A DNA stretch of 64,000 bases from a virus, in IMG/VR virus record IMGVR_UViG_2706795158_000001, positions 39,335-103,334 of that record. One strand, given 5' to 3'. The number at the start of each line of letters is the position of its first letter. Within the stretch, counting starts at the first letter, position 1. Below, piece after piece: positions 53,887-64,000 of the stretch. The position numbers were made by a program, and so were the translations under genes. Under the pieces are notes generated by a model, which had not been told where the DNA came from, searched no databases, and saw only the letters and a list, made by a program, of their open reading frames with translations.

Positions 53887-54159
53887 ATGGATATCGGATA
53901 TGCTAGAGACTTAATTAAGCAAGGAAAAAAGGCTGCTCGTAAGGGTTGGAATGGGTCAAACATGTTCATATACTATGTACCTGCCGCATCATACCCCCCT
54001 GTTACAGATGTAGCAAAGGAAGCGTTTGGTGGAGAGGACGTACCCTATCGTGAATATGTTGCCTTAAAGACAGCACAGGGGGATGTTGCTACATGGTCAC
54101 CTAGTGGCTCTGATTTCCTAGCTGATGACTGGGTAGAAGTAACTGAAGGAGGTAACTAA
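53887..54159 (+). CDS. DUF2829/Tad2-like protein
   Basis: KQGKKAARKGWNG..MFI...W.PS.SD.LADDW family pattern. Confidence 0.8.
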   Translation: MDIGYARDLIKQGKKAARKGWNGSNMFIYYVPAASYPPVTDVAKEAFGGEDVPYREYVALKTAQGDVATWSPSGSDFLADDWVEVTEGGN

Positions 54160-54160
54160 T

Positions 54161-54373
54161 ATGGGTTATGGAACTGCATTTGAAGAGGTTAAAACGGGTA
54201 AGGGCATGCGCCTACCTAACTGGTCACCAGAAGTAGTTATTCGAGCACAGTTTCCAGATGAGCATAGTAAGATGACTGCACCTTACTTATATGTAGAATC
54301 TCGCTTTGGTAGAGTACCTTGGAAAGAGACTGCTATCGAACAGTTCTCTGAAGAGTGGGTAGTAGTGGACTAA
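54161..54373 (+). CDS. Second DUF2829/Tad2-like protein (divergent)
   Basis: AFEEVKTGKGMRLPNW...PYLYV...VPW...FSEEW. Confidence 0.65.
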   Translation: MGYGTAFEEVKTGKGMRLPNWSPEVVIRAQFPDEHSKMTAPYLYVESRFGRVPWKETAIEQFSEEWVVVD

Positions 54374-54529
54374 GTGAGGAATTGGTGGGATATATACACC
54401 ATTGATTACTGGAAAGCGTTTTGGTTTAGAGTCTACATCCGTAAATACCATATGGATGTAGCTCGTTTCCATAAAGAAGTAGCTAGAAAATATAAGAATG
54501 GAGCTGGATTAGATGACAACAGTAAATAA
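54374..54529 (+). CDS. 51-aa aromatic/basic peptide not in the ORF track
   Basis: GTG directly after the previous stop; fills the gap and overlaps the next start; weak SD. Confidence 0.4.
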   Translation: MRNWWDIYTIDYWKAFWFRVYIRKYHMDVARFHKEVARKYKNGAGLDDNSK

Positions 54530-54890
54530 AGGTAAAAACATTGATGAGAAGAAGCTAAAGCAACAGAGACAACAAGAGATTAAGCGTAAGGAGAAAGAGA
54601 TTCAGAAGCAGAAAGCCTACTGGAATGGCATGATTACACGTGAAGAAGCACGTGATATGGTTATCAAGTCACAAGAGCCTTTAATGGAGCAAATGCGTAC
54701 TATGTTCATCCAAGTGAAAACCCTTACAGAAATGGTATTACAAAAGGGTCTTGCTACAGAGGATGAACTGAATAAAATTGGTGTACCTATCTACAACGAA
54801 ATGTATGGTGTTCCAACTAAACAAGAAGTAGCTAATCCAGAGGAGGTAACTAAGGATGCCGATAAACCTGTCCAAGGGTCAAACAATTAA
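54513..54890 (+). CDS. Hypothetical protein
   Basis: SD GGAG; coiled-coil N-terminus. Confidence 0.7.
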   Translation: MTTVNKGKNIDEKKLKQQRQQEIKRKEKEIQKQKAYWNGMITREEARDMVIKSQEPLMEQMRTMFIQVKTLTEMVLQKGLATEDELNKIGVPIYNEMYGVPTKQEVANPEEVTKDADKPVQGSNN

Positions 54891-55524
54891 TCTGTCTAAA
54901 GAAGTCAATAATGGTCTTAAAACAGTAACAGTTGGTCTTAGCTGGGGTGCGAAAGTACTCCATGCTAGCCCTTCTAAAGAAGAGGCAAAAAGCTTTATGC
55001 AAAAATTCTCTTCCTTTTTTAAAGGAGGAAGCGGTGGGGTTGTAACAGAATCCCCTAAGGTACCAAAAATGGACATTGACTCTTCAGTATTCCTAATCAA
55101 GGACACTAACCAACGCCTGACAACAGTGTACTATGGTAATTTACGTGCTCCTGGAGTACGACATGCTGGAGATGACCTTACAGGTAATGATAAGAAGGGT
55201 GCTAGCGACAATGAGGAAATCTACGTAGACTTTGAAAAGATACCTCCTAATGTGCATAAGCTGTTCGTTGTTGCCAATGTATTCTCTCCTATGACTGGTC
55301 ACTTTGGGTGGGTACCTGGATCATACATCCGTATTAAGGATGAAAAAGGTAATGAAATTGTACGCTACGAACTAGGTGCAGACTTCAAGGATAAAAAGGG
55401 TATCGTTGTAGCAGAATTGTACCGTGATGGTAATGGAGACTGGAATTTCCGTGCCATTGGTAAAGCTACAAGTGGAAGCTCAATGAACAAGCTAGAAAAC
55501 TTATGCCTACAGGGGGACTTCTAA
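54856..55524 (+). CDS. terD: TerD-family stress protein
   Basis: INLSKGQTINLSK, VGLSW, DIDSS, YYGN, HAGDDLTG, DNEEI, AELYR..GDW.FRAIG. Confidence 0.9.
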   Translation: MPINLSKGQTINLSKEVNNGLKTVTVGLSWGAKVLHASPSKEEAKSFMQKFSSFFKGGSGGVVTESPKVPKMDIDSSVFLIKDTNQRLTTVYYGNLRAPGVRHAGDDLTGNDKKGASDNEEIYVDFEKIPPNVHKLFVVANVFSPMTGHFGWVPGSYIRIKDEKGNEIVRYELGADFKDKKGIVVAELYRDGNGDWNFRAIGKATSGSSMNKLENLCLQGDF

Positions 55525-55527
55525 TAT

Positions 55528-56280
55528 ATGGAAATCTTACAACACATAATTGATACTTATGCCCAGTTCTTTGACTGGCAAATGTGGGGAGAAGTACTCA
55601 CTAGTAAATCAGCTTGGGGTTTAATACTTAGTTTAGTAATTCTTGAGGGCTTGTTATCAGCAGATAACGCCCTCGTACTTGCCATCATGGTAAGACACTT
55701 ACCAGAGGAACAACGTAAGAGAGCTTTATTCTATGGACTACTTGGTGCTTATTTCTTCCGATTCCTATTCATTGGAGTAGGAACTCTACTAATCAAGTTA
55801 TGGTATGTTAAACTGATTGGTGCTCTATACTTACTGTGGATTGTAATTGACCACTATCGTAAGAAGGGTAAGGAAGCTGATGAAAACCATGAGATGAATA
55901 CAGGAGGAATACTAGTAAAATGGTTCGGTGTATTCTGGGCTACAGTTATCTCTGTTGAAATCATGGACATAGCGTTCTCTGTGGACAGTATTTTAGCAGC
56001 ACTTGGTGTATCAGAACAGGTTTGGGTACTACTAATTGGGGGTATGTTAGGAATCTTGATGATGCGTGGTGTAGCTCACATCTTCCTATACTTAATGGAG
56101 AAGGTACCAGAGTTAGAGAATACTGCATACTTCTTGATACTCGCAATTGCAGTTAAGATGGGTGGAAGCGTGTTTGGTCTACACATCAGTCATGAAGTGT
56201 TCGTTATTACTTTAGTTGGTGCATTTGCTATCACATTTGCGTTACACTATCTTAAAAAGTACCTACCCCGTAAGGGTTAA
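55528..56280 (+). CDS. terC: TerC-family integral membrane protein (YkoY/YceF-like)
   Basis: LEGLLSADNALVLA...LPEEQRKRALFYG...; DIAFSVDSILAA; multiple transmembrane segments. Confidence 0.92.
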   Translation: MEILQHIIDTYAQFFDWQMWGEVLTSKSAWGLILSLVILEGLLSADNALVLAIMVRHLPEEQRKRALFYGLLGAYFFRFLFIGVGTLLIKLWYVKLIGALYLLWIVIDHYRKKGKEADENHEMNTGGILVKWFGVFWATVISVEIMDIAFSVDSILAALGVSEQVWVLLIGGMLGILMMRGVAHIFLYLMEKVPELENTAYFLILAIAVKMGGSVFGLHISHEVFVITLVGAFAITFALHYLKKYLPRKG

Positions 56281-56287
56281 CATAGAT

Positions 56288-56320
56288 TAGAGACAGGATA
56301 TCCTGTCTCTATTTTCTTTG
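56288..56320 (+). terminator. Rho-independent terminator after terC
   Basis: tagagacagg-atat-cctgtctcta followed by ttttcttt. Confidence 0.8.
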
Positions 56321-56348
56321 TTTAAGAAGGGTATTATTTAAGGGGGTT

Positions 56349-56870
56349 TTGAAAATGGCTAAGACAGGTGGCAAGGGTATTAATAGTAAAAACAAGGGTG
56401 CAGAGTATGAGCGTAAGATTGCTAAGGCTCTAGGCTCTTGGTGGGGTGAACAGTTCCAACGCACTCCTGCTAGTGGAGGATTACAGTGGAAGAAGGATAA
56501 CCGAGTTACAGGAGATATAGTTACCCCTCCTGAATCAGTATTTCCTTTTACTATTGAATGTAAGAAGCGTGAGGGTTGGTCTTTAGAGCAGTTCCTAAAG
56601 AATACTGGTGAGATGGAAGAATGGTGGACACAATGTATTAGGGATGCTGCAAAAATAGATAAGAAGCCTATGGTTATCTTCAGCAAGAACTTTGATACAG
56701 ACTATGTACTTATGGACTTAGAGGATTTTAGTGCTCTTACATTAGGTAAAGAACCTTTCAACCATTTTGCAGTATCAAAAGTCGGGTTAGAGCCACGAGT
56801 TATCTGCGAGTTGGATAAATTAATCGCCAATGTTTCTAAGGAAGACGTCATCAAGGCTTACAGTCTGTGA
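56349..56870 (+). CDS. Holliday junction resolvase (PD-(D/E)xK type)
   Basis: KGAEYERKIAK...RTPASGG...GDI...IECKKRE; syntenic with Herelleviridae resolvases. Confidence 0.8.
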   Translation: MKMAKTGGKGINSKNKGAEYERKIAKALGSWWGEQFQRTPASGGLQWKKDNRVTGDIVTPPESVFPFTIECKKREGWSLEQFLKNTGEMEEWWTQCIRDAAKIDKKPMVIFSKNFDTDYVLMDLEDFSALTLGKEPFNHFAVSKVGLEPRVICELDKLIANVSKEDVIKAYSL

Positions 56871-56885
56871 CCTATTCGATAAGAT

Positions 56886-56946
56886 GAGACAAGCTTGATA
56901 AGGAAAATGGGTTACTTTTCCTACTGGCTTGTCTCTTTATTTTTTC
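56886..56946 (+). terminator. Long stem-loop terminator
   Basis: gagacaagc...aggaaaa / ttttcct...gcttgtctc followed by tttatttttt. Confidence 0.7.
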
Positions 56947-57023
56947 TGAGAGGACGGGAAAAATGAAATCAAGAGTTGAGCAATCAACCAAAACCAAATT
57001 GAGTATAAAGGGGATGTTAAAGG

Positions 57024-57716
57024 ATGACTAATCAACAAATGTATGAGGTAGAAGGACAATACGTGCCAGACTTAAAGGCTGTAGCAGCAGTACTAAATGT
57101 ACCAAAGGTGTTAAAACGTGATATTCAAGAGGGTGGAGCACTAGAAGGTAAGGTAAAACTAGTAAATACAGAAGAGGTGGGTGACGGTATCAAGGCTGAG
57201 ACTGAAGATGAGCAATGGGATAACTTTAAAGCTAAGACAGATGAGGCGATTGCTAAAGAAGTAGAAGAGGAAGTAGGAACTGTAGAGGAAGAGGACGATG
57301 AGCCACAACCAATAAACTATGTAAGAACAGAGGATATTGTCAACACTAAAGAGGAAATCTTAGAAGCCATACCAGAATTTAAGGCATTGAAGGAGTTTAA
57401 GGATTGGTATAAGGACATTGATACTCAAACGGTAGAGTACTTTGCTAAGGCACTTGGTCTAACATGGACAGAAACAGAACATGCTAATATCCACCGTATG
57501 AGAATCTCAATGGCTATGCAACGTTTCTTCTTCCCAGAGATGTTTAAGCCTAAAGAGGGTAAGAAAAAGAAAGCCAAGTATGGTGACCTGTCTACAGAGG
57601 ATTTATTCAAAATGGTAGCTGCTAATAAACTAGACGTGAAGAAGACTAACAATAATCCAATTGACCGTATGAACGCAATAATGGCTCTAAAGAAAGCAGG
57701 TAAATTACCTAAATAG
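57024..57716 (+). CDS. Hypothetical protein with two C-terminal helix-loop-helix-like repeats
   Basis: Acidic N-terminal half; two 37-aa motifs shared with ORF1 and ORF 58917. Confidence 0.75.
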   Translation: MTNQQMYEVEGQYVPDLKAVAAVLNVPKVLKRDIQEGGALEGKVKLVNTEEVGDGIKAETEDEQWDNFKAKTDEAIAKEVEEEVGTVEEEDDEPQPINYVRTEDIVNTKEEILEAIPEFKALKEFKDWYKDIDTQTVEYFAKALGLTWTETEHANIHRMRISMAMQRFFFPEMFKPKEGKKKKAKYGDLSTEDLFKMVAANKLDVKKTNNNPIDRMNAIMALKKAGKLPK

Positions 57717-57720
57717 GTCA

Positions 57721-57753
57721 GGAGAGGGGAGGGTTTTCCCCTCTTCTTTTTTA
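57721..57753 (+). terminator. Rho-independent terminator
   Basis: ggagagggga / tcccctcttc followed by tttttt. Confidence 0.75.
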
Positions 57754-57804
57754 TTACTCTTGAGCTAGGAACATCGGGTCTCCTCCACCCCTAGGAAAGA
57801 GAGA

Positions 57805-57833
57805 TTGACAAAAGGTGTCAAAATTGCAAAAAT
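57805..57833 (+). promoter_or_regulatory. Sigma-A-like -35 box embedded in a palindromic operator
   Basis: TTGACA-aaagg-TGTCAA palindrome; only a weak -10 (aaaaat) 17 nt downstream. Confidence 0.45.
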
Positions 57834-57888
57834 GAATTCAACGCCACCAACGAGTGGCAGTTAGCCAGAGCCAAAAGGAGAGGGTATT

Positions 57889-58167
57889 ATGGAAAACAAC
57901 AAGAAGGTACAAGAGTACAAACCTGAGTTAAAGGCTGAGATTCTAGAGGATTGTTTGTCAATCCCTATCTCCAGCACACAGAAGTTGAGGGTACTAATGG
58001 TTAGGGATGAAAACTTAGGCATTCGTATTTCAGCTCAAAAGTGGTGGAGAGAGAATAGGGACGGTGAGTGGGTACCTGGTAAGGGGTTTATGATGACAGG
58101 TCGCCAAGCCCTAATGATGGGGAAAGCTTTACAAGATGTTGGCAAACGTATTATTAACGTGAAGTAA
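57889..58167 (+). CDS. PC4/YdbC-like ssDNA-binding protein
   Basis: ISAQKWW...GEWVPGKGF motif. Confidence 0.65.
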   Translation: MENNKKVQEYKPELKAEILEDCLSIPISSTQKLRVLMVRDENLGIRISAQKWWRENRDGEWVPGKGFMMTGRQALMMGKALQDVGKRIINVK

Positions 58168-58188
58168 TTATATCTAATTGGGGGAAAA

Positions 58189-58836
58189 TTGAATATGTCT
58201 AACGAGCTATGTAGAAACGGTGAAGCACTTAAATTATCTTGGGACGCAGTAGTCAAGCAGTTCAACAACTTAGTGAAGTATGCAGCAAGACAAAAAGCAC
58301 AGAACAGTACACTGGATGGCATGTTATCGGCAGAGGATTTATATCAAGAAGGTATGATTAAGTTGTATGATTGCTGGGATAAGTGGTGCGTGGGTGAGAA
58401 TAAAGACATGGACGAATTTGCTCCTATCTTCCGTAAGTCTCTATACAGACAGATGGACAACAAAGGTGGAGGGAGCAAGTTTACCTACATAGACTTAGAA
58501 GATGCGTTTACAAACATAGAAGACAGCAAAGGCTATGATGTGGTAGAAAGAATGTACCGTGATAATGGCATGGAGAAGCTAAAGGATATGCTAAGTGAGA
58601 TATCAAGAGAGTTCTTAGAAGAACTTATTGAGCCTAGTGAAGCAACATTATTCCAGGTATGGGCTGATACTGCACGTAAGAATATGCTTAAATCACAGGG
58701 CAAGCGTATCAACATTCCTAAGGACACAACAGTTAGAATGAAACATATACAACGTGCCTTAGGACTAACAGGTAAGCAGTATGACAACGTAATGCAAGAG
58801 ATTAGGGAGAAAGCACCGTTGGCATTACAGTACTAG
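58189..58836 (+). CDS. Phage RNA polymerase sigma factor (sigma70 family)
   Basis: Region 2-like LVKYAA...AEDLYQEGMIKLY...F; C-terminal HTH-like segment. Confidence 0.8.
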   Translation: MNMSNELCRNGEALKLSWDAVVKQFNNLVKYAARQKAQNSTLDGMLSAEDLYQEGMIKLYDCWDKWCVGENKDMDEFAPIFRKSLYRQMDNKGGGSKFTYIDLEDAFTNIEDSKGYDVVERMYRDNGMEKLKDMLSEISREFLEELIEPSEATLFQVWADTARKNMLKSQGKRINIPKDTTVRMKHIQRALGLTGKQYDNVMQEIREKAPLALQY

Positions 58837-58916
58837 AGAGATAGCAGTTTAGGAGAAAAAATCAAATAAATCACTTCTTTTATAAGTGATTACATGTGAA
58901 TGGGGGAAATGTAGTT

Positions 58917-59378
58917 ATGAGTTTCTTTGGAAATATAGACTCAAAATTATTAGAAGCGTTACAAGAAAGCACTTGTTTTGGTATTGCACACGATGAGAGT
59001 GTACCTGAATGTCAGAAGTGTGATGTAAGAGGTCAGTGTAAGGCACGTATGGAGGGGGCTAATATCCCAACACCACGTAAGAAAGAGAAGAAGGTTGTAG
59101 TAGAAACTCCTAAGGAGACTAAAGCAACAACTAAGCCTGCAACAAAGTCGGACAAGCCAGCACCGAAGAAGGCTACTAGTACACCTGCTAAACCTAAAGC
59201 AGAAGCTAAGAAGAAAGACCCTGTCCAGTATTCGGCAGATATGCCAGACTTCAAGCCTATGAGCTTTGAGGCACTGAAGGACTTAGCATCAGAGCGTAAT
59301 GTAGAATGGAAAGACTACGCTAATGATTCTATCACACGTATGCGTCTGATTATGAATCTTAAGAAATCGTACCAGTAG
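58917..59378 (+). CDS. Cys-cluster protein with Lys/Pro/Thr linker and C-terminal repeat motif
   Basis: C-x11-C-x2-C-x5-C; C-terminal SFEALKDL...VEW...ITRMRLIMNLKK. Confidence 0.75.
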   Translation: MSFFGNIDSKLLEALQESTCFGIAHDESVPECQKCDVRGQCKARMEGANIPTPRKKEKKVVVETPKETKATTKPATKSDKPAPKKATSTPAKPKAEAKKKDPVQYSADMPDFKPMSFEALKDLASERNVEWKDYANDSITRMRLIMNLKKSYQ

Positions 59379-59437
59379 TATAAAAGGGTGTGCCAAGCAG
59401 GGTACACCCTTTCATTAAGTTTCAGGGGGTAAGACAT

Positions 59438-60286
59438 ATGAATAACAATGAAATAATCAGGACTCCTATCTCCGTAAATAGAAGTCCTATATCTGTATCT
59501 TTTTGTAACTGCTATAATCAAAAAATCATTAAGCACAATGACCACGCATATGCGGTGTGCGGAGATAGAATGTCTCTAGGTGACCTTAAAGACTACTTAC
59601 TGTTAGATCTACCCAATCCTATATACTTTACTCACCTAGTGCCGAACTGGGAAGAGAAGATTAACTTAGTGCTTGATAACAATACACCAGTGATTCTAAA
59701 AACAGGGAAGGCGATACCTACCTACCTTGTTAAGAAGATGGGCGAACAGAACCGCTCGACTTTGAGGGTTGTTATTAATTCTCTAGATGACTCTGCACGG
59801 AAGTTGGTACAGAAGGAGTCCTCCGAGATGAAAGACATCAGGGAGATGATGTTCATAGCAAAAGCGTGGAAGGTTTTCGTGTCGTGTCACGTAGACTACT
59901 TCCCTCACATAATGAAGCCATTAGACTTATTGCAACTAGTGGAAATGAATAAGAATCTGGTATCCTCTATCACAGTAGACTTCCCAGCATTCACTATTGA
60001 ATTCCTAGGGGCAATGGTAGACCGATGGCAGATGATTAATCCTAAGTTCATGGAGCATATCCAGAAGTACTATTTACTGGACGAACATGAAATCTATCAG
60101 CCTAGATGTAAAGTAGAGATACTGTCCAAGTTGGATACATTTGTTAAGGGAAGACGAGTAAGCATCATAGACCTTCCAGACCATAACGTTACCGAGTATC
60201 ACACAGAAGAACCACCATTTGGTATATCTTATGATAATCAAGAGCCAACTACTTGTGGAAAATGTGGGAGACTACTATATGCATAA
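59438..60286 (+). CDS. Hypothetical protein, possibly a degenerate SPL-type radical-SAM fold
   Basis: PVILKTGK...VVINSLDDSARKLVQ...FPHI resembles the SPL-family barrel; no CxxxCxxC; C-terminal CGKC. Confidence 0.4.
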   Translation: MNNNEIIRTPISVNRSPISVSFCNCYNQKIIKHNDHAYAVCGDRMSLGDLKDYLLLDLPNPIYFTHLVPNWEEKINLVLDNNTPVILKTGKAIPTYLVKKMGEQNRSTLRVVINSLDDSARKLVQKESSEMKDIREMMFIAKAWKVFVSCHVDYFPHIMKPLDLLQLVEMNKNLVSSITVDFPAFTIEFLGAMVDRWQMINPKFMEHIQKYYLLDEHEIYQPRCKVEILSKLDTFVKGRRVSIIDLPDHNVTEYHTEEPPFGISYDNQEPTTCGKCGRLLYA

Positions 60287-60287
60287 C

Positions 60288-60319
60288 AAAAAGGTAGCCC
60301 ATTACAGGCTACCTTTTAA
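60288..60319. terminator. Bidirectional terminator at the convergent junction
   Basis: aaaaaggtagcc-cattaca-ggctacctttt. Confidence 0.85.
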
Positions 60320-61126
60320 TATTGAATTCAGTATATGTGTGAAGTCCTCCTGTGTACCACTCAAGAATCTAACCATCGAGCCATGTGTATAGTTTCTCAT
60401 GTCATTAACCCTTTTAGTGAACTTATCCCTTGTTAACAATAGAACACGTGGAAACGTAGGATTTTTGAATACTTTAGCCCATTCTTTCTTAGCCCACTGT
60501 TTGGACACGTAGTAATCTTTGTAATTGTCAATCTTGTTCTTGATAACTGGTAGCCTCTCCGTACCCATGTCGACCTCAATGCAGAATCCATATCCTTTAC
60601 CCTTACACTTAAATACACAAACAATGTCGGGCTTAATGAAACTGTCATTAAAGTGGCACTTCTCTTCCGTCTCATAATATATCATCTCTCCCTCTAGGTC
60701 TCTAAGAATTTCCCTTATCAAGCATTCACATTCGTTAATGGCAACTCTGTGGTGAAACCCGTCTACTAGTATTCGCTGACCATTAGAGTCATACTTGATT
60801 GGCTTACTGTATCGTTCCATATCCAGTAATATTATTCCTGCCCTGTCGATACATATGTGCTGTTGAGCACTCCCCTGACCCAAAGGTACAGGGGGAACTA
60901 TTCTATCTATCACATGCTTGTTGAACAGTATCTTCAGCCTATTGTTAAGCCTTTCAGTACTAGCAAACTCTGGATAAAGGCGTTGTATCTGGTCTCTCTT
61001 TAGCACCCTCTTATCAGCCAGTAACCTTAGTAGTCCCATATCCCTCTCTGTAATGTTGTTGCAGTTATTATAAACCCACTCCCTAGTTATCTGCTTCACT
61101 TCTGGACGCTTATAGATACCCTTCAT
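60302..61126 (-). CDS. Replication-relaxation family protein (winged HTH plus PD-(D/E)xK nuclease)
   Basis: ITERDMGLLRLL...L...QI; H...INE; KPD...IEVDMGTE...K...Y...FPRVLLLT; ATG 61126 has GGAGG SD. Confidence 0.85.
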   Translation of the reverse strand: MKGIYKRPEVKQITREWVYNNCNNITERDMGLLRLLADKRVLKRDQIQRLYPEFASTERLNNRLKILFNKHVIDRIVPPVPLGQGSAQQHICIDRAGIILLDMERYSKPIKYDSNGQRILVDGFHHRVAINECECLIREILRDLEGEMIYYETEEKCHFNDSFIKPDIVCVFKCKGKGYGFCIEVDMGTERLPVIKNKIDNYKDYYVSKQWAKKEWAKVFKNPTFPRVLLLTRDKFTKRVNDMRNYTHGSMVRFLSGTQEDFTHILNSILKGSL

Positions 61127-61127
61127 A

Positions 61128-63869
61128 TCAACCTTCCTCCAATCCATCGTCTGATAATACTTCCTCTAGTAATTCCATTATTTCTTCTGCACCTTCTTCA
61201 TCACCATCCTCTAGTAGCTTAGTCACCAGTGCACCAGCATCTTTCTCTAGTGTACGCAATTCATCTTCATGTTGTTCTCTACGCTCATCTTCATCAATTT
61301 CAATAGGGGTGTTTTTTGGTGGGGTTTTGCCTTTTTTGTCCTCTCCCTCTACTAGTTCAACAGAGAACTCGGCATTGTTCTTGTATCGGAACAACTCATT
61401 CAGCACTTCCTGTTTTGGTCTTCCCATAAGCCTTGCATTTATATCGTATAAGTCATTATTGTCATATTTCTTGTATCTCTTTTCAGGCTCGTTAATAGCC
61501 TTAACCATAAATGGTGGAGTAGCTTCACCCTTCTTATTGTACATCTTTAGCTTGACGATTGCATGGTGCTTAGGCATACCCTTTGATATTTGGTCTACGC
61601 TAAATTCTGGTTGAATAACAGACTCCAGTTCTTTCAAGTTATCTCTATCTGTTTGGAATATAACATAGTGTGGACCAGCCTTACGTATCATCTTAGGTAA
61701 CTCTCTATCCGCCTTTTTTAACTGCTCCCATCCATGGAACATAAATGTTAAGCCGCAACGATACTTTCTGTAACGAGTTAACATACTTCTCCAACGTTCA
61801 CTACCCTTGATATAGTGGTCTGGTTCATCTAGTACTATGAAGCATGGCTTACGGTCATCCTCTTCCTCAATATCTTCCCTACTAATGATAGCCAAATTGA
61901 ACTTGGATATTAGGAATGATACTAGTGCGGTCTGATTCTCTTCACCTAGTGTTTCATTAGCCTTGACTAACACTAGACAGCCTTCATCCATCCACTTCCT
62001 GAAGTCTACTAGATATTCACCATTCTCATCCTTTTTAGGCTTCTGAAGTATGAAACTCTTTAGAGCCTTCTTACGCATTACAACTGCTAAACGTCTGAAT
62101 GCTTGCTCATATATAGCTTTTCTGTCCTCTTTAGACATCTTCTCATGGAAGTACTCCCAGTCACTACGCAACTCTGGGTCATCAATATGAGGAATAATCC
62201 TAGCACGATATTCTGCATTACTCAACATGTTCTCTATATCCTGTAACGTTGCATCTGGAGTAGTATACACTGCACGTACAGCATTCTCAACCCAGATTCT
62301 AGATGTCATGCTTAATTCTGTACCTGCTACAAGCTCAACGTATGACAGAATCTCTTCAGTAATTAAATCCTCAATAACATCTGTATTTCTACCTCTGAAT
62401 ATCTCATTCCAGCCCAACCCTACAGGGTTCTCTGAATTTAGGAAGTCTATTATCTTTACCTTATCCCTCTTCTCTGGTGGAACTAGATTCAGTATCCTCT
62501 GTGCTAATTTACCATCTGCCGCATCTACTACCATAGACCCGTAACCTTTCTCCAGTGCATCTAGTGCAAAGCTAGCTGCAAATGTGGACTTACCACTACC
62601 TGGCTCTCCTATTACCACACGTGACATACACAGTAGGTTAGGGTTATCTCCTGCGAAGTATACTGTCTTAGTTTCACCATCTGTGTCTTCATATGTCGCA
62701 AACGGTATACCCTTACCGTCATCTTCAAATATTTCCTTAGGTATATCCGACAAACTTCTATGCTGAACAGTGTCTAGCTCTCCTGCATGCTCCAACTGTA
62801 ACACTTGGTCTGGTACCTGTATTATCTTAGCCAACTCTAGGGAGCATAGTTCATCTCCATTCATCTTAACAACCATCTTACGGTCTCTAATATTCTTGAG
62901 TGCTTTCACCTTGTCTCTACCCTCTACTTCTTTCGTCACTATCTTATTATCCCCTTCTAGAGGATGGAAACCTGCTGTAAGGCTTCTCGTGATGGCTCTA
63001 CGTCTGTCTTCATCATCAGATACAGCTATTGCATTAAAGTTAATCTTGAACCCTTCACTATACTTCTTACGCAATGAGGATTTAGAACGTCCCTCATGTG
63101 CCTTTCTCTTTAATGAGTCTCTAAACTCACTATTCATCTCCCAGCCAGGTATGAGGAAATCGCCTACTATGTTCATAAGTTCCTCAAGAACAAGACCCAC
63201 AACGTTAGCCAAGCCCACCAAGACGTTTTTTGATGTAAACATCGTACCTTTTTTCTTAGGAATGGTGTTCTTTTCCTTGATATCTTCGCTGATTCCAACC
63301 ATAGTCTCATTCCAAGACTCCCCTAATGGTCTCATCCCTAGTTGGAGTATCGCATAGTCCTCATCCTTGAGATAGTTAGTAGTCGTCAAGATAGAGTCCA
63401 ATGGAGTATACTTAGGGTTCTCCACATCCAAGGATAGTGCTGGGTGGTTTTGTAAGGACATCTTAGTAACACTAGTATTATCCATGTGCAAGTTTGGTAG
63501 AGGGTCTTTCACCTCCCTTACTGTAGAACGTTTCCAGCATCTCCTTATCTGCCTAGTAAGTGCATCCTTTAAGTGGTCTTTATCAGGGATAACCAGATAG
63601 AACTTTACCTGACCTTTGTGTATCACAACTTCCCACCATATATTCATCTCTGGAGTGTAGACCAGCCTACCACCTGCAAAGTTGATACGTCTGTTTAGTG
63701 GAGTGAACAGTGTCGCAAACTCTGTTATAAGCCACCTAACTCCTGCATTAGACGTCATCTTACTAGGAATAACCTCCAGTGTCACATACTGTATTTCCTC
63801 TTTCTCTACTAAACGTATCTTCTCCTTAGTAGTTGGATTAACAATATTAACCTCTGGTTGTGCATTCAT
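61128..63869 (-). CDS. VirD4/TraG- or HerA-like P-loop ATPase
   Basis: GEPGSGKS Walker A; FIVLDEPD Walker B; RKYRCGL...Q; long N-terminal extension; stop 1 nt before the downstream start. Confidence 0.8.
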   Translation of the reverse strand: MNAQPEVNIVNPTTKEKIRLVEKEEIQYVTLEVIPSKMTSNAGVRWLITEFATLFTPLNRRINFAGGRLVYTPEMNIWWEVVIHKGQVKFYLVIPDKDHLKDALTRQIRRCWKRSTVREVKDPLPNLHMDNTSVTKMSLQNHPALSLDVENPKYTPLDSILTTTNYLKDEDYAILQLGMRPLGESWNETMVGISEDIKEKNTIPKKKGTMFTSKNVLVGLANVVGLVLEELMNIVGDFLIPGWEMNSEFRDSLKRKAHEGRSKSSLRKKYSEGFKINFNAIAVSDDEDRRRAITRSLTAGFHPLEGDNKIVTKEVEGRDKVKALKNIRDRKMVVKMNGDELCSLELAKIIQVPDQVLQLEHAGELDTVQHRSLSDIPKEIFEDDGKGIPFATYEDTDGETKTVYFAGDNPNLLCMSRVVIGEPGSGKSTFAASFALDALEKGYGSMVVDAADGKLAQRILNLVPPEKRDKVKIIDFLNSENPVGLGWNEIFRGRNTDVIEDLITEEILSYVELVAGTELSMTSRIWVENAVRAVYTTPDATLQDIENMLSNAEYRARIIPHIDDPELRSDWEYFHEKMSKEDRKAIYEQAFRRLAVVMRKKALKSFILQKPKKDENGEYLVDFRKWMDEGCLVLVKANETLGEENQTALVSFLISKFNLAIISREDIEEEDDRKPCFIVLDEPDHYIKGSERWRSMLTRYRKYRCGLTFMFHGWEQLKKADRELPKMIRKAGPHYVIFQTDRDNLKELESVIQPEFSVDQISKGMPKHHAIVKLKMYNKKGEATPPFMVKAINEPEKRYKKYDNNDLYDINARLMGRPKQEVLNELFRYKNNAEFSVELVEGEDKKGKTPPKNTPIEIDEDERREQHEDELRTLEKDAGALVTKLLEDGDEEGAEEIMELLEEVLSDDGLEEG

Positions 63870-63880
63870 CTTAACCCCTC

Positions 63881-64000
63881 CTATTTAAACCATCCTTGCA
63901 TAAACTCCGGTAACACATACATCATTTCTTCTCTAGCCTTCTCACCAATAGACTCAAACGTTGCATCAAATATCCCACCCATTATACCCCCAATGAATTT
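63881..64000 (-). CDS. C-terminal 39 aa of an upstream gene running off the window
   Basis: Open frame KFIGGIMGGIFDATFESIGEKAREEMMYVLPEFMQGWFK*; its stop abuts the ATPase SD. Confidence 0.6.
   Translation of the reverse strand, partial: KFIGGIMGGIFDATFESIGEKAREEMMYVLPEFMQGWFK

What the first reader, a model, noticed from the sequence alone, without database searches (positions are those of the whole stretch)
60302..64000. Conjugation-like ATPase plus relaxase-family nuclease operon in a Herelleviridae-like phage
Seen: an opposite-strand operon, converging on a bidirectional terminator, with a 913-aa P-loop ATPase (hydrophobic stretch VLVGLANVVGLVL in its N-terminal part) tightly coupled to a replication-relaxation protein. 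Known: this pair is typical of plasmids and conjugative elements, Herelleviridae are regarded as lytic, and large phage-plasmids with such virion genes (pBtic235-like) exist in the B. cereus group. Inference: either a phage-plasmid that can also move by cell contact, or an ATPase-nuclease module used against competing elements.
Basis: partly seen in the sequence, partly recalled or inferred. Interest (0 to 1): 0.8.

Follow-up and report, generated by a model that had tools for sequence, protein, structure and literature searches.

The report
Conjugation-type DNA-handling operon of SPO1-like phages
The two genes are real and do look like conjugation genes, but they are the end of an eight-gene operon shared by SPO1-like and many other Bacillus phages, first described in 2012, dispensable in the laboratory and still of unknown function.

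Summary
Observation confirmed. Window 60302-63869 (minus strand) holds a 913-aa P-loop ATPase tightly coupled to a Replic_Relax (MOBC-type, PD-(D/E)xK) nuclease, ending at a two-way terminator hairpin. The genome is 97% identical to Bacillus phage JL (Herelleviridae).

The pair is the tail of an eight-gene leftward operon that runs 2.3 kb past the window: pilin-like membrane protein, actin-like ParM, probable RHH protein, three tiny proteins, ATPase, nuclease. It is no chimera and no recent capture. The whole cassette is orthologous to SPO1 genes 29.1-27.3, and its ATPase has homologues in 143 phage records, nearly all from hosts that form spores.

The ATPase belongs to the VirB4/VirD4 branch, not HerA/FtsK. 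Its N-terminal 370 residues fold like the VirB4 N-domain. Its motor aligns best with a VirD4 coupling protein. It has no membrane anchor.

The genome has no AAA_10-type VirB4 and no integrase, and the cassette has no VirB6-sized protein, so autonomous conjugation and a phage-plasmid state are unsupported.

Pathria et al. (2012) described the homologous "DNA translocation operon"; relatives are dispensable in 0305phi8-36 and SPP1. This scan met the module before on other DNA. Verdict: new member of a known but functionally unexplained kind.

The parts
60285..60322 (.). Two-way intrinsic terminator: 11-12 bp GC-rich stem (core GGTAGCC/GGCTACC) with an A-run upstream and a T-run downstream, between gene 59390-60286(+) and the nuclease gene
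   Evidence: Sequence; inverted repeat; folds at -15.9/-17.1 kcal/mol on the + and - strands, z -4.0/-3.5
60302..61147 (-). MOBC-type / Replic_Relax nuclease (SPO1 gp27.3 orthologue). The probable true start is the ATG at 61126, giving 274 aa
   Evidence: Pfam PF13814 E 1.5e-18; phrog_9381 E 5e-128. E161, P173-D174, E191, D193, E197 and K205 are invariant across 14 homologues down to 26% identity. Start site
61128..63869 (-). 913-aa soluble P-loop ATPase of the DUF8128 family (SPO1 gp27.4, SPP1 gp32, phage G gp156). It has a VirB4-like N-domain, a VirD4/VirB4-type motor and an acidic C-terminal tail
62754..63869 (-). N-terminal domain, residues 1-372, with a VirB4 (TrwK) N-domain fold.
   Evidence: AF2 model pLDDT 93.5. 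In a search of 48,161 chains, rank 1 is TrwK/VirB4 7o42_A with Z 15.1, rmsd 3.9 and 251 aligned; the next hit has Z 8.7. The Foldseek top 13 are all TrwK. Hydropathy
61431..62744 (-). Motor domain, residues 376-813: Walker A GEPGSGKS (421-428), Walker B D681-E682, and an all-helical insert at about 489-607
   Evidence: VIA Z 26.7 for VirB4 4ag5, 25.1 for TrwB, 23.8 for DotL, 23.4 for HerA. G426, K427 and E682 are invariant in 72 homologues. hhalign to pCF10 PcfC gives E 2.6e-5 over 297 columns
61131..61295 (-). Acidic helical C-terminal tail (residues 859-913; 24 Asp/Glu in the last 55 residues), shared with close relatives
63881..64000 (-). 3' part of the 66-aa small protein gene (SPO1 gp27.5 orthologue), cut by the window end. 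The operon continues for 2.3 kb beyond the window
   Evidence: L002 4881-5081(-); phrog_15417 E 7e-42

Best explanation
The finding is the downstream end of an eight-gene, roughly 6-kb leftward operon. Window-equivalent coordinates are about 60302-66282, which is L002 1302-7282. It is the orthologue of SPO1 genes 29.1, 27.9, 27.8, 27.7, 27.6, 27.5, 27.4 and 27.3.

The operon encodes, in order:
- a VirB2/TrbC-like two-helix membrane protein;
- an actin-like ParM/Alp protein;
- a small basic protein that I read as a ribbon-helix-helix adaptor;
- three proteins of 44-66 aa, two with a predicted membrane helix;
- a soluble hexamer-type ATPase of the VirB4/VirD4 branch;
- a MOBC-type PD-(D/E)xK nuclease.

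The most likely working is as follows; every step is inferred. The nuclease binds and nicks phage DNA at a specific site. It hands the DNA to the ATPase, which has no membrane anchor of its own and docks on the small membrane proteins. The actin-like filament and its adaptor bring the DNA to that site. The DNA is then moved across a membrane. The destination is open: a neighbouring cell through a resident conjugative channel, or the forespore.

This is an accessory function, not part of lytic growth in the laboratory. What is shown here is the family assignment, the anatomy, the conservation and the distribution.
For: PHROG matches for every small ORF show they are conserved genes.

Orthology and synteny hold with JL and SPO1. 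The same order, ALP - small proteins - ATPase - Replic_Relax, recurs at only 22-24% ATPase identity in a B. amyloliquefaciens 162-kb replicon and a metagenome contig.

The nuclease passes the Pfam cut-off, and the PD..ExD..K residues are invariant. Replic_Relax is the MOBC relaxase family and pairs with VirD4 coupling proteins in mobilisable elements (PMC5357655; PMC12857230).

The ATPase model has pLDDT 89.9. The motor is closest to VirB4, TrwB and DotL. The N-domain matches VirB4 uniquely. The profile aligns over 297 columns with pCF10 PcfC (VirD4), against 71 columns with PrgJ (VirB4). The distant family member P0048 passes the Pfam cut-offs of T4SS-DNA_transf, TraG-D_C and TrwB_AAD_bind.

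In phage G the homologue gp156 sits beside a separate AAA_10/P-loop_TraG ATPase (gp155), a TrbL/VirB6 protein, a T4SS pilin and a Replic_Relax gene. Its authors call gp155/gp156 TraC-like and TraD-like (PMC12484599).

The first gene is pilin-like. T4SS_pilin matches weakly in 10 of 24 homologues. hhalign to the TrbC proteins that sit next to ATPase homologues gives E 5.6e-5 and 1.7e-4. The two-helix core is strongly conserved.

Homologous modules are dispensable: deletion of orf200-207 in 0305phi8-36 causes no growth defect (PMC3357382), and SPP1 genes 31.2 and 32 are non-essential (PMC6316719).
Against: No DNA transfer, nicking or membrane association has been shown for any member. This genome lacks the channel parts of a type IV system: there is no AAA_10 match and no protein of VirB6 size in the cassette. 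It could therefore not transfer DNA on its own.

No oriT-like or centromere-like repeat array was found in or next to the operon. The nuclease is missing from some cassettes, namely SPP1, L004 and the Clostridium plasmids, so nicking is not obligatory for the ATPase core.

The pilin assignment is below Pfam's cut-off. The RHH reading of the 129-aa protein rests on sequence pattern only; Pfam gave no match. Motors of this superfamily joined to PD-(D/E)xK nucleases also occur in defence systems: the structural matches include HerA-nuclease defence complexes and DndH-C, and PADLOC gives mad8 at E 1e-11.
Confidence: 0.5

Rival explanations
1. Maintenance of a carrier or plasmid-like state. ParM and its adaptor segregate non-integrated phage genomes, and the nuclease starts rolling-circle-type copying, so the phage persists in dividing cells.
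For: Actin-like partition protein: ALP_N and MreB-like_C, E 4e-18. The same cassette lies in temperate Tsamsa-like phages, where the authors suggested a plasmid prophage (PMC7685451 and PMC10454425). It also lies in large Bacillus replicons filed as plasmids, next to recombinases. PHROG labels the nuclease 'replication initiation by nicking'.
Against: No tyrosine recombinase match in this genome. The cassette is conserved in SPO1, a strictly lytic model phage, and CP-51 is listed as virulent (PMC4113786). This idea gives no role to a VirB4/VirD4-type ATPase or a pilin-like protein. No centromere-like repeats were found.
Confidence: 0.15
2. Competition module. A membrane-associated ATPase-nuclease pair blocks or degrades incoming DNA of superinfecting phages, plasmids or conjugative elements.
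For: The pairing of a motor of this superfamily with a PD-(D/E)xK nuclease is common in defence systems. Structural matches to the motor include HerA-nuclease defence complexes and DndH-C, at Z 19-25. PADLOC gives mad8 at E 1e-11 over residues 418-727. The module is dispensable for lytic growth.
Against: The nuclease has no PADLOC match. It carries the MOBC signature and is syntenic with pilin, VirB6 and VirB4 genes in phage G. The link to a ParM system is not explained. The structural matches to defence ATPases are weaker than, or tied with, those to VirB4 and TrwB, and the N-domain match is specific to VirB4.
Confidence: 0.15
3. An ordinary part of lytic DNA replication: the nuclease nicks to start sigma-type or recombination-dependent replication, and the ATPase acts as a DNA translocase at replication or packaging intermediates.
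For: The operon lies among replication genes, between the gp27/gp28 homologues and thymidylate synthase, DNA polymerase and others. PHROG names the nuclease a nicking replication initiator.
Against: Homologous modules can be deleted without a growth defect. The small membrane proteins and the pilin-like gene do not fit. The module is absent from Staphylococcus and Listeria phages, which do share this phage's replication helicase.
Confidence: 0.07
4. Assembly chimera at about 60.3 kb that joins phage and plasmid DNA.
For: Strand switch and GC-skew flip at 60 kb.
Against: The same junction is present at 97%, 91% and 89% identity in JL, CP-51 and S4-1 and is syntenic in SPO1. GC content is unchanged. 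Single contigs from four public runs span 56.8-64.0 kb.
Confidence: 0.01

Closest known systems
SPO1 genes 29.1-27.3 and the 'DNA translocation operon' of phage 0305phi8-36 (orf200-207; Pathria et al. 2012, PMC3357382)
   Same: Orthologous gene for gene to SPO1, with the same order and the same neighbours, gp27/gp28 on one side and thymidylate synthase on the other. The ATPase is 58% identical. Pathria et al. already linked SPO1 gp27.3, gp27.4 and gp27.9 to a MobC-like relaxase, a coupling ATPase and an MreB-like protein.
   Different: 0305phi8-36 also has a VirB6-like protein, which this cassette lacks. The 2012 paper called the ATPase VirD4/TraG-like through its C-terminal domain only. Here the N-terminal domain proves VirB4-like, and the first gene pilin-like.
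SPP1 early genes 31, 31.1, 31.2 and 32 (Godinho et al. 2018, PMC6316719)
   Same: gp32 is a homologue (22% identity over 82% of the query). It is preceded by small membrane proteins, is non-essential, and its authors read it as a possible trans-membrane translocon.
   Different: SPP1 has no Replic_Relax nuclease and no actin-like gene next to it.
Mobilisation modules with a MOBC relaxase and their own coupling protein (CloDF13 mobB/mobC; streptococcal IME class 8; pAD1 TraX)
   Same: A PD-(D/E)xK Replic_Relax-type nuclease encoded directly next to a VirD4-branch ATPase (PMC5357655; PMC12857230).
   Different: Those coupling proteins are VirD4-type. The phage ATPase has no transmembrane anchor and has a VirB4-type N-domain in that position. 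The carrier here is a 139-kb lytic phage genome. No oriT has been identified.
TrwK/VirB4 and TrwB/VirD4 of plasmid R388; VirB4 of Thermoanaerobacter pseudethanolicus
   Same: The N-domain fold matches TrwK (Z 15.1). The motor fold matches VirB4 (Z 26.7) and TrwB (Z 25.1).
   Different: Sequence identity is only 9-16%. The Pfam VirB4 models AAA_10 and CagE_TrbE_VirB do not match. In phage G the family sits beside a separate AAA_10 VirB4-type ATPase, so it is not simply the VirB4 orthologue.
Phage G gp146 and gp149-gp156 (PMC12484599)
   Same: Replic_Relax, T4SS pilin and a homologue of this ATPase lie in one locus.
   Different: Phage G also carries TrbL/VirB6-like and AAA_10/P-loop_TraG proteins. 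The cassette here is a reduced version without them and carries a ParM system instead.
Type II partition systems (ParMRC, Alp7AR)
   Same: An actin-like ATPase gene followed by, and overlapping, a small basic gene.
   Different: No centromere repeats were found. The pair is embedded in a conjugation-type operon of a lytic phage.

Membership tests
MOBC relaxases / Pfam Replic_Relax (PF13814) | Match to the family profile above the curated cut-off | tested here: met
   68 bits against a cut-off of 25.3, E 1.5e-18, profile positions 1-183 of 191
MOBC relaxases / Pfam Replic_Relax (PF13814) | Conserved PD-(D/E)xK-type acidic and lysine residues of the nuclease core | tested here: met
   E161, P173-D174, E191, D193, E197 and K205 are invariant in 14 sequences down to 26% identity. 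Which of them are catalytic is inferred from the superfamily pattern (PMC3424549)
MOBC relaxases / Pfam Replic_Relax (PF13814) | Site-specific nicking at an oriT, with a binding site of direct repeats (as in TraX of pAD1) | tested here: inconclusive
   No repeat array in or beside the operon. The site could lie anywhere in the 139-kb genome. Nicking itself cannot be tested with these tools
MOBC relaxases / Pfam Replic_Relax (PF13814) | Encoded next to a coupling-type ATPase | tested here: met
   The start codon lies 1 nt after, or 20 nt inside, the ATPase gene. The same pairing is seen
VirD4-type coupling proteins (T4CP) | N-terminal transmembrane anchor | tested here: not met
   The only hydrophobic segment is an amphipathic helix at 213-239. 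The N-terminal 372 residues form a soluble alpha/beta domain
VirD4-type coupling proteins (T4CP) | Nucleotide-binding domain with an all-alpha insert, folded like TrwB | tested here: met
   TrwB Z 25.1, 376 of 427 residues aligned, rmsd 4.5; DotL Z 23.8. hhalign to pCF10 PcfC gives E 2.6e-5 over 297 columns running from Walker A past Walker B
VirD4-type coupling proteins (T4CP) | Pfam T4SS-DNA_transf / TraG-D_C / TrwB_AAD_bind above cut-off | tested here: not met
   None for this protein. Only 2-3 of 58 family members match at E <= 0.001. The distant member P0048 passes all three
VirB4 ATPases | VirB4-type N-terminal domain | tested here: met
   TrwK 7o42_A Z 15.1, 251 aligned, rmsd 3.9, with the next fold at Z 8.7. 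Foldseek top 13 are all TrwK, E 3e-6 to 8e-5
VirB4 ATPases | Sequence membership (AAA_10, CagE_TrbE_VirB, P-loop_TraG) | tested here: not met
   No match. hhalign to PrgJ gives E 0.046 over 71 columns. AAA_10 matches 1 of 58 family members
VirB4 ATPases | Works within a channel set (VirB3, VirB6, VirB8, hydrolase) in the same element | tested here: not met
   No AAA_10 match in the genome. No cassette protein other than the actin-like one exceeds 174 aa. In phage G the family sits next to a separate VirB4-type protein
HerA/FtsK translocases | Closest fold and sequence relatives are HerA or FtsK | tested here: not met
   HerA Z 23.4 and FtsK Z 18 lie below VirB4 and TrwB for the motor. The N-domain matches VirB4, not a HerA N-terminal domain. 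The Pfam DUF87 hit is E 0.089
VirB2/TrbC pilins | Profile match, plus a leader followed by two hydrophobic helices around a short basic loop | tested here: inconclusive
   T4SS_pilin 18.8 bits against a cut-off of 26.6; 10 of 24 homologues match weakly. hhalign to TrbC neighbours of ATPase homologues gives E 5.6e-5 and 1.7e-4. The topology is visible in the alignment
Type II (ParMRC) partition system | Actin-like ATPase, DNA-binding adaptor and repeated centromere | tested here: inconclusive
   The actin-like protein is met: ALP_N 66 bits and MreB-like_C 67 bits. The adaptor is inferred from sequence pattern only. No centromere repeats were found
Phage-plasmids | Plasmid replication, partition and dimer-resolution genes, and stable extrachromosomal carriage | tested here: inconclusive
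   A partition gene is present. No tyrosine recombinase was found. A plasmid replicon was not searched for. Carriage cannot be tested here. Close relatives are described as virulent

The most novel reading that the evidence does not exclude
The operon is a device for getting the genome of a lytic phage into the host's spore. The ParM-like filament pushes phage DNA to the cell pole. The nuclease and the VirD4/VirB4-type motor, docked on the small membrane proteins, then pass DNA across the sporulation septum. This would explain three things: why the module is confined to phages of spore-forming Bacillota, why it is dispensable in ordinary laboratory growth, and why lytic phages such as SPO1 and CP-51 are recovered from heat-treated spores.
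Probability: 0.2. Interest if true: 0.85.

Novelty: new member of a known kind. Interest (0 to 1): 0.4.

Why it matters
A conjugation-type DNA-processing module has been kept for a long time in strictly lytic model phages (SPO1, SPP1) and in relatives that infect the Bacillus cereus group, and nobody knows what it does. If it moves phage DNA between cells without virions, or into spores, it would be a route of phage spread or persistence that plaque assays miss. That would bear on how phages survive host dormancy. The instance in this window adds no new kind of system. The analysis does sharpen the description of the ATPase: a VirB4-type N-domain joined to a VirD4-leaning motor, with no membrane anchor. 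It also shows that the SPO1-type cassette is a reduced form of the fuller type IV set seen in phage G.

Tried and rejected
**Transcription evidence.** Twenty public runs, 19 of them labelled soil metatranscriptomes, hold a relative that I estimate at about 97-98% identity. Laid on 54000-64000, their contigs of 6-23 kb cover both strands' genes at flat depth. This is probably DNA in RNA libraries, so it says nothing about expression. I used it only to show that the junction is bridged.

**Spo0A boxes.** TGTCGAA occurs once in 14 kb and far from the operon, which is chance level.

**Rfam.** Nothing was found in or around the operon.

**Promoter and terminator scan.** The counts equal those of shuffled sequence, and the scan missed the obvious hairpin.

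**Repeats.** The search for oriT or parC arrays gave only two-copy chance matches.

**Related loci in bacterial genomes.** The bacterial context therefore rests on the plasmid collection and a few metagenome contigs.

**Direct sequence search of the PDB.** A single-sequence search gave only P-loop noise. The profile search gave weak DndH, HerA and DotL hits.

**Literature.** A search for SPO1 expression data on genes 27.3-29.1 found none. The pAD1 TraX paper is not held.

**Published product name.** I rejected the annotation 'lipid A export ATP-binding/permease MsbA' given to the JL and phage G homologues. The protein has no membrane domain and no ABC-transporter match.

Full report
**What is there**

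The window is part of a single 138,877-base virus record and covers its bases 39335-103334. The last 4 kb are 96.9% identical to Bacillus phage JL (Herelleviridae, Spounavirinae, Siminovitchvirus), 90.9% to CP-51 and 89.1% to S4-1, each over the full length.

The nuclease more probably starts at the ATG at 61126. That start has a GGAGG upstream, gives 274 aa as annotated in JL and SPO1, and lies one base after the ATPase stop codon.

A hairpin at 60289-60317, flanked by an A-run and a T-run, sits between the convergent genes. It folds well on both strands, at -15.9 and -17.1 kcal/mol, and no shuffle out of 200 does as well. GC skew changes sign at 60 kb while GC content does not change. This is what a change of coding strand gives, and it is no sign of foreign DNA.

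**The operon continues beyond the window**

I fetched the next stretch of the same record as L002 (window coordinate = L002 + 59000). Upstream of the ATPase, on the same strand and with gaps of 1-12 bases or short overlaps, lie:

- a 66-aa gene (L002 4881-5081);
- a 47-aa gene (5083-5226);
- a 44-aa gene (5228-5362);
- a 129-aa gene (5374-5763);
- a 345-aa gene (5756-6793);
- a 158-aa gene (6806-7282, counted from the ATG that has a GGAGG upstream).

A non-coding stretch of about 600 bases follows, and then the genes turn rightward again.

The 345-aa protein is actin-like: ALP_N and MreB-like_C, both at E 4e-18. The 44- and 47-aa proteins each have one predicted membrane helix. All six belong to PHROG families, so they are conserved phage genes and not chance ORFs.

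The N-terminus of the 129-aa protein has the strand-helix-helix pattern of ribbon-helix-helix proteins. This is my reading of the sequence; Pfam gave no match.

In 24 homologues, the 158-aa protein has a variable N-terminal part and a very conserved C-terminal core of two hydrophobic helices around a short basic loop. That core matches Pfam T4SS_pilin weakly in 10 of the 24. It also aligns, at E 5.6e-5 and 1.7e-4, with the TrbC/VirB2-annotated proteins that sit directly upstream of ATPase homologues in a metagenome contig and in a Clostridium sporogenes plasmid. I call it pilin-like. It is not a proven pilin.

**The nuclease**

The nuclease matches Pfam Replic_Relax well above the cut-off. Published work equates this family with the MOBC relaxases (CloDF13 MobC, pAD1 TraX). 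These have a restriction-endonuclease-type fold, have not been seen to form a covalent DNA intermediate, and pair with VirD4-type coupling proteins in mobilisable elements (PMC5357655; PMC3424549; PMC12857230).

I aligned 14 homologues down to 26% identity, including SPO1 gp27.3. The acidic and lysine residues expected of a PD-(D/E)xK core are invariant: E161, P173-D174, E191, D193, E197 and K205. This argues for an active enzyme kept by selection.

**The ATPase**

The local Pfam copy gives no hit above the cut-off. Precomputed annotation puts the protein in DUF8128. The family is large: 4538 cluster representatives at E <= 0.001, most of them 750-950 residues long and aligned end to end.

A model built on 72 homologues is confident, with mean pLDDT 89.9. 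The motor domain (376-813) superposes about equally well on the following:

| Structure | Z |
|---|---|
| VirB4 C-domain of Thermoanaerobacter | 26.7 |
| DndH C-domain | 25.6 |
| TrwB | 25.1 |
| DotL | 23.8 |
| HerA | 23.4 |
| FtsK, TcpA | about 18 |

I then folded the N-terminal 372 residues alone (pLDDT 93.5). They match one fold only. In a search of 48,161 representative chains, TrwK/VirB4 of R388 came first with Z 15.1 and 251 aligned residues, and the next hit had Z 8.7. The 13 best Foldseek hits are all TrwK.

At the sequence level the family profile behaves differently:

- against the VirD4-type coupling protein PcfC of pCF10 it aligns over 297 columns, from Walker A past Walker B, at E 2.6e-5;
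- against the VirB4-type PrgJ it aligns over 71 columns at E 0.046;
- against phage G gp155 it aligns over 64 columns.

One distant family member passes the Pfam cut-offs of three VirD4 families, but few members match any such model.

In phage G the homologue (gp156) lies directly after a separate AAA_10/P-loop_TraG protein (gp155). The same locus holds a TrbL/VirB6-like protein, a T4SS pilin and a Replic_Relax gene. The phage G authors call the two ATPases TraC-like and TraD-like and state that their function in phages is entirely unknown (PMC12484599).

My reading is that this is a family of its own in the VirB4/VirD4 branch. It has a VirB4-type N-domain where coupling proteins have a membrane anchor, and a motor that leans towards VirD4. 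In the fuller loci it fills the coupling-protein place.

It reaches membrane-helix hydropathy in only 8 of 72 homologues, so I do not count it as an anchor. The last 55 residues are strongly acidic.

**Not a chimera and not a recent capture**

The junction at 60.3 kb is the same in JL, CP-51 and S4-1. In SPO1 the same eight genes (29.1, 27.9, 27.8, 27.7, 27.6, 27.5, 27.4, 27.3) lie in the same order, between genes 27/28 and the thymidylate synthase gene. Contigs of four public runs bridge the junction.

The same gene order recurs where the ATPase is only 22-24% identical: in a 162-kb Bacillus amyloliquefaciens replicon filed as a plasmid and in a metagenome contig. By the authors' descriptions it is also in the Tsamsa-like siphoviruses Izhevsk and Kirov.

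The nuclease and the actin-like gene are not always present. SPP1, contig L004 and the large Clostridium plasmids have only small membrane proteins plus the ATPase. The constant core is therefore the ATPase with its small membrane partners.

**Distribution**

A translated search of 50,697 phage records finds the ATPase in 143. By first word of the organism name these are: Bacillus 129, Geobacillus 5, Deep-sea 2, Lysinibacillus 2, and one each of Brevibacillus, Alicyclobacillus, Terrisporobacter, Clostridium and Microcystis.

As a control, this phage's DnaB-like helicase, searched at the same threshold, finds 3532 records. They include 389 Staphylococcus phages and 43 records with a Listeria host. 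Herelleviridae of hosts that do not form spores are therefore in the collection and within reach, and they lack the module.

This pattern fits a link with spore-forming hosts. It could also simply reflect a shared gene pool.

**What the genome lacks**

There is no match to AAA_10 and none to tyrosine recombinases. No cassette protein is large enough to be a VirB6, and there is no hydrolase in the operon. No repeat array was found that could be an oriT binding site or a centromere. The phage could therefore not build a transfer channel by itself, and nothing points to a plasmid prophage state.

**What was already known**

Pathria et al. (2012, PMC3357382) described the homologous "DNA translocation operon" of phage 0305phi8-36: orf200 MobC-like relaxase, orf201 coupling ATPase, orf203 VirB6-like, orf207 MreB-like. 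They named SPO1 gp27.3, gp27.4 and gp27.9 as its closest counterparts. They showed that deleting the operon causes no growth defect, and they proposed spread of phage DNA by translocation between touching cells.

Godinho et al. (2018, PMC6316719) reported that SPP1 gp32 is non-essential and resembles TrwB, VirB4 and FtsK. They suggested a translocon built with gp31.1 and gp31.2.

A 2026 paper shows that SPO1 is trapped in spores and mentions the ParM gene 27.9 as a possible aid (PMC12991052).

Earlier notes of this scan reached similar descriptions on other genomes. They led me to the 2012 and 2025 papers, which I then read myself.

**Mechanism**

The parts are those of the DNA-processing half of a conjugation system:

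- a site-specific nuclease;
- a coupling-type motor;
- possibly an RHH accessory protein;
- small membrane proteins, one of them pilin-like;
- an actin-type positioning system.

The most economical reading is an accessory module that nicks phage DNA, brings it to a membrane site and pumps it across. Whether the destination is another cell (through a conjugative channel supplied by a resident plasmid or ICE) or the forespore cannot be decided from sequence.

I give this general reading 0.5. The main rivals are a carrier-state maintenance role (0.15), a competition or exclusion role (0.15) and a role in ordinary replication (0.07). All steps of the mechanism are inferred. What is shown is family membership, anatomy, conservation, distribution and, from the literature on relatives, dispensability.

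**Verdict**

The inference of a phage-plasmid or a self-transmissible phage is not supported. The module is a known, conserved and unexplained feature of SPO1-like and many other Bacillus phages, and this copy is one more member.

Noticed in passing
L002 7395-7500 (window-equivalent about 66395-66500), minus strand, upstream of the first operon gene: Two short non-coding blocks are conserved between this phage or JL and SPO1, although the proteins are only about 50-60% identical. They read roughly TAGTnATnTGACAAGCT and GTGCTAGTAC, about 85 nt apart, and several CTAG-containing motifs lie in the same stretch. This could be an operator for the RHH-like protein or a promoter.
   Followed up: partly
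L002 7406-7448 (window-equivalent 66406-66448): A GC-rich inverted repeat, ACCCCCCG and CGGGGGGT with 27 nt between the arms, lies about 100 nt upstream of the first gene. It is present in JL with one base fewer and is not conserved in SPO1. There is no Rfam match.
   Followed up: partly
L002 about 7856-7866, minus strand: An extended -10 promoter-like element, TGGTATAAT, points towards the operon about 570 nt upstream of its first gene. That would give a long leader. The consensus scan did not list it because no -35 hexamer fits.
   Followed up: no
window 54000-64000, public runs X1-X20: About 20 soil runs from about 20 separate studies, nearly all labelled metatranscriptomes, hold the same relative of this phage (I estimate about 97-98% identity). 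The word share is nearly identical in all of them (0.48-0.49), and the contigs are long and span both strands. This looks like DNA carry-over or a shared contaminant or spike, not soil transcription.
   Followed up: partly
window 56707-56787: In that relative, 79 bases between the RusA-like gene and the transcriptional regulator gene are replaced by 88 other letters, identically in all four runs laid.
   Followed up: no
L001 (JL gp150) and L013 (phage G gp156): The ATPase homologues are annotated in GenBank as 'lipid A export ATP-binding/permease MsbA-like'. This looks like a wrong product name: the protein has no membrane domain and no ABC-transporter match.
   Followed up: yes
L011 (Clostridium sporogenes plasmid NZ_CP022406, 137006-139806) and about 30 Clostridium plasmid records: A TrbC/VirB2-family gene overlaps the start of an ATPase homologue (26% identity). 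The pair stands alone, with no other transfer genes listed within 12 kb on either side.
   Followed up: partly
L012 (Bacillus cereus linear 72.7-kb 'plasmid' NZ_CP090086): An ATPase homologue with three small upstream genes lies near a ParM/StbA gene, an integrase and an AimR-type arbitrium receptor. This 'plasmid' is probably a phage or a phage-plasmid.
   Followed up: no
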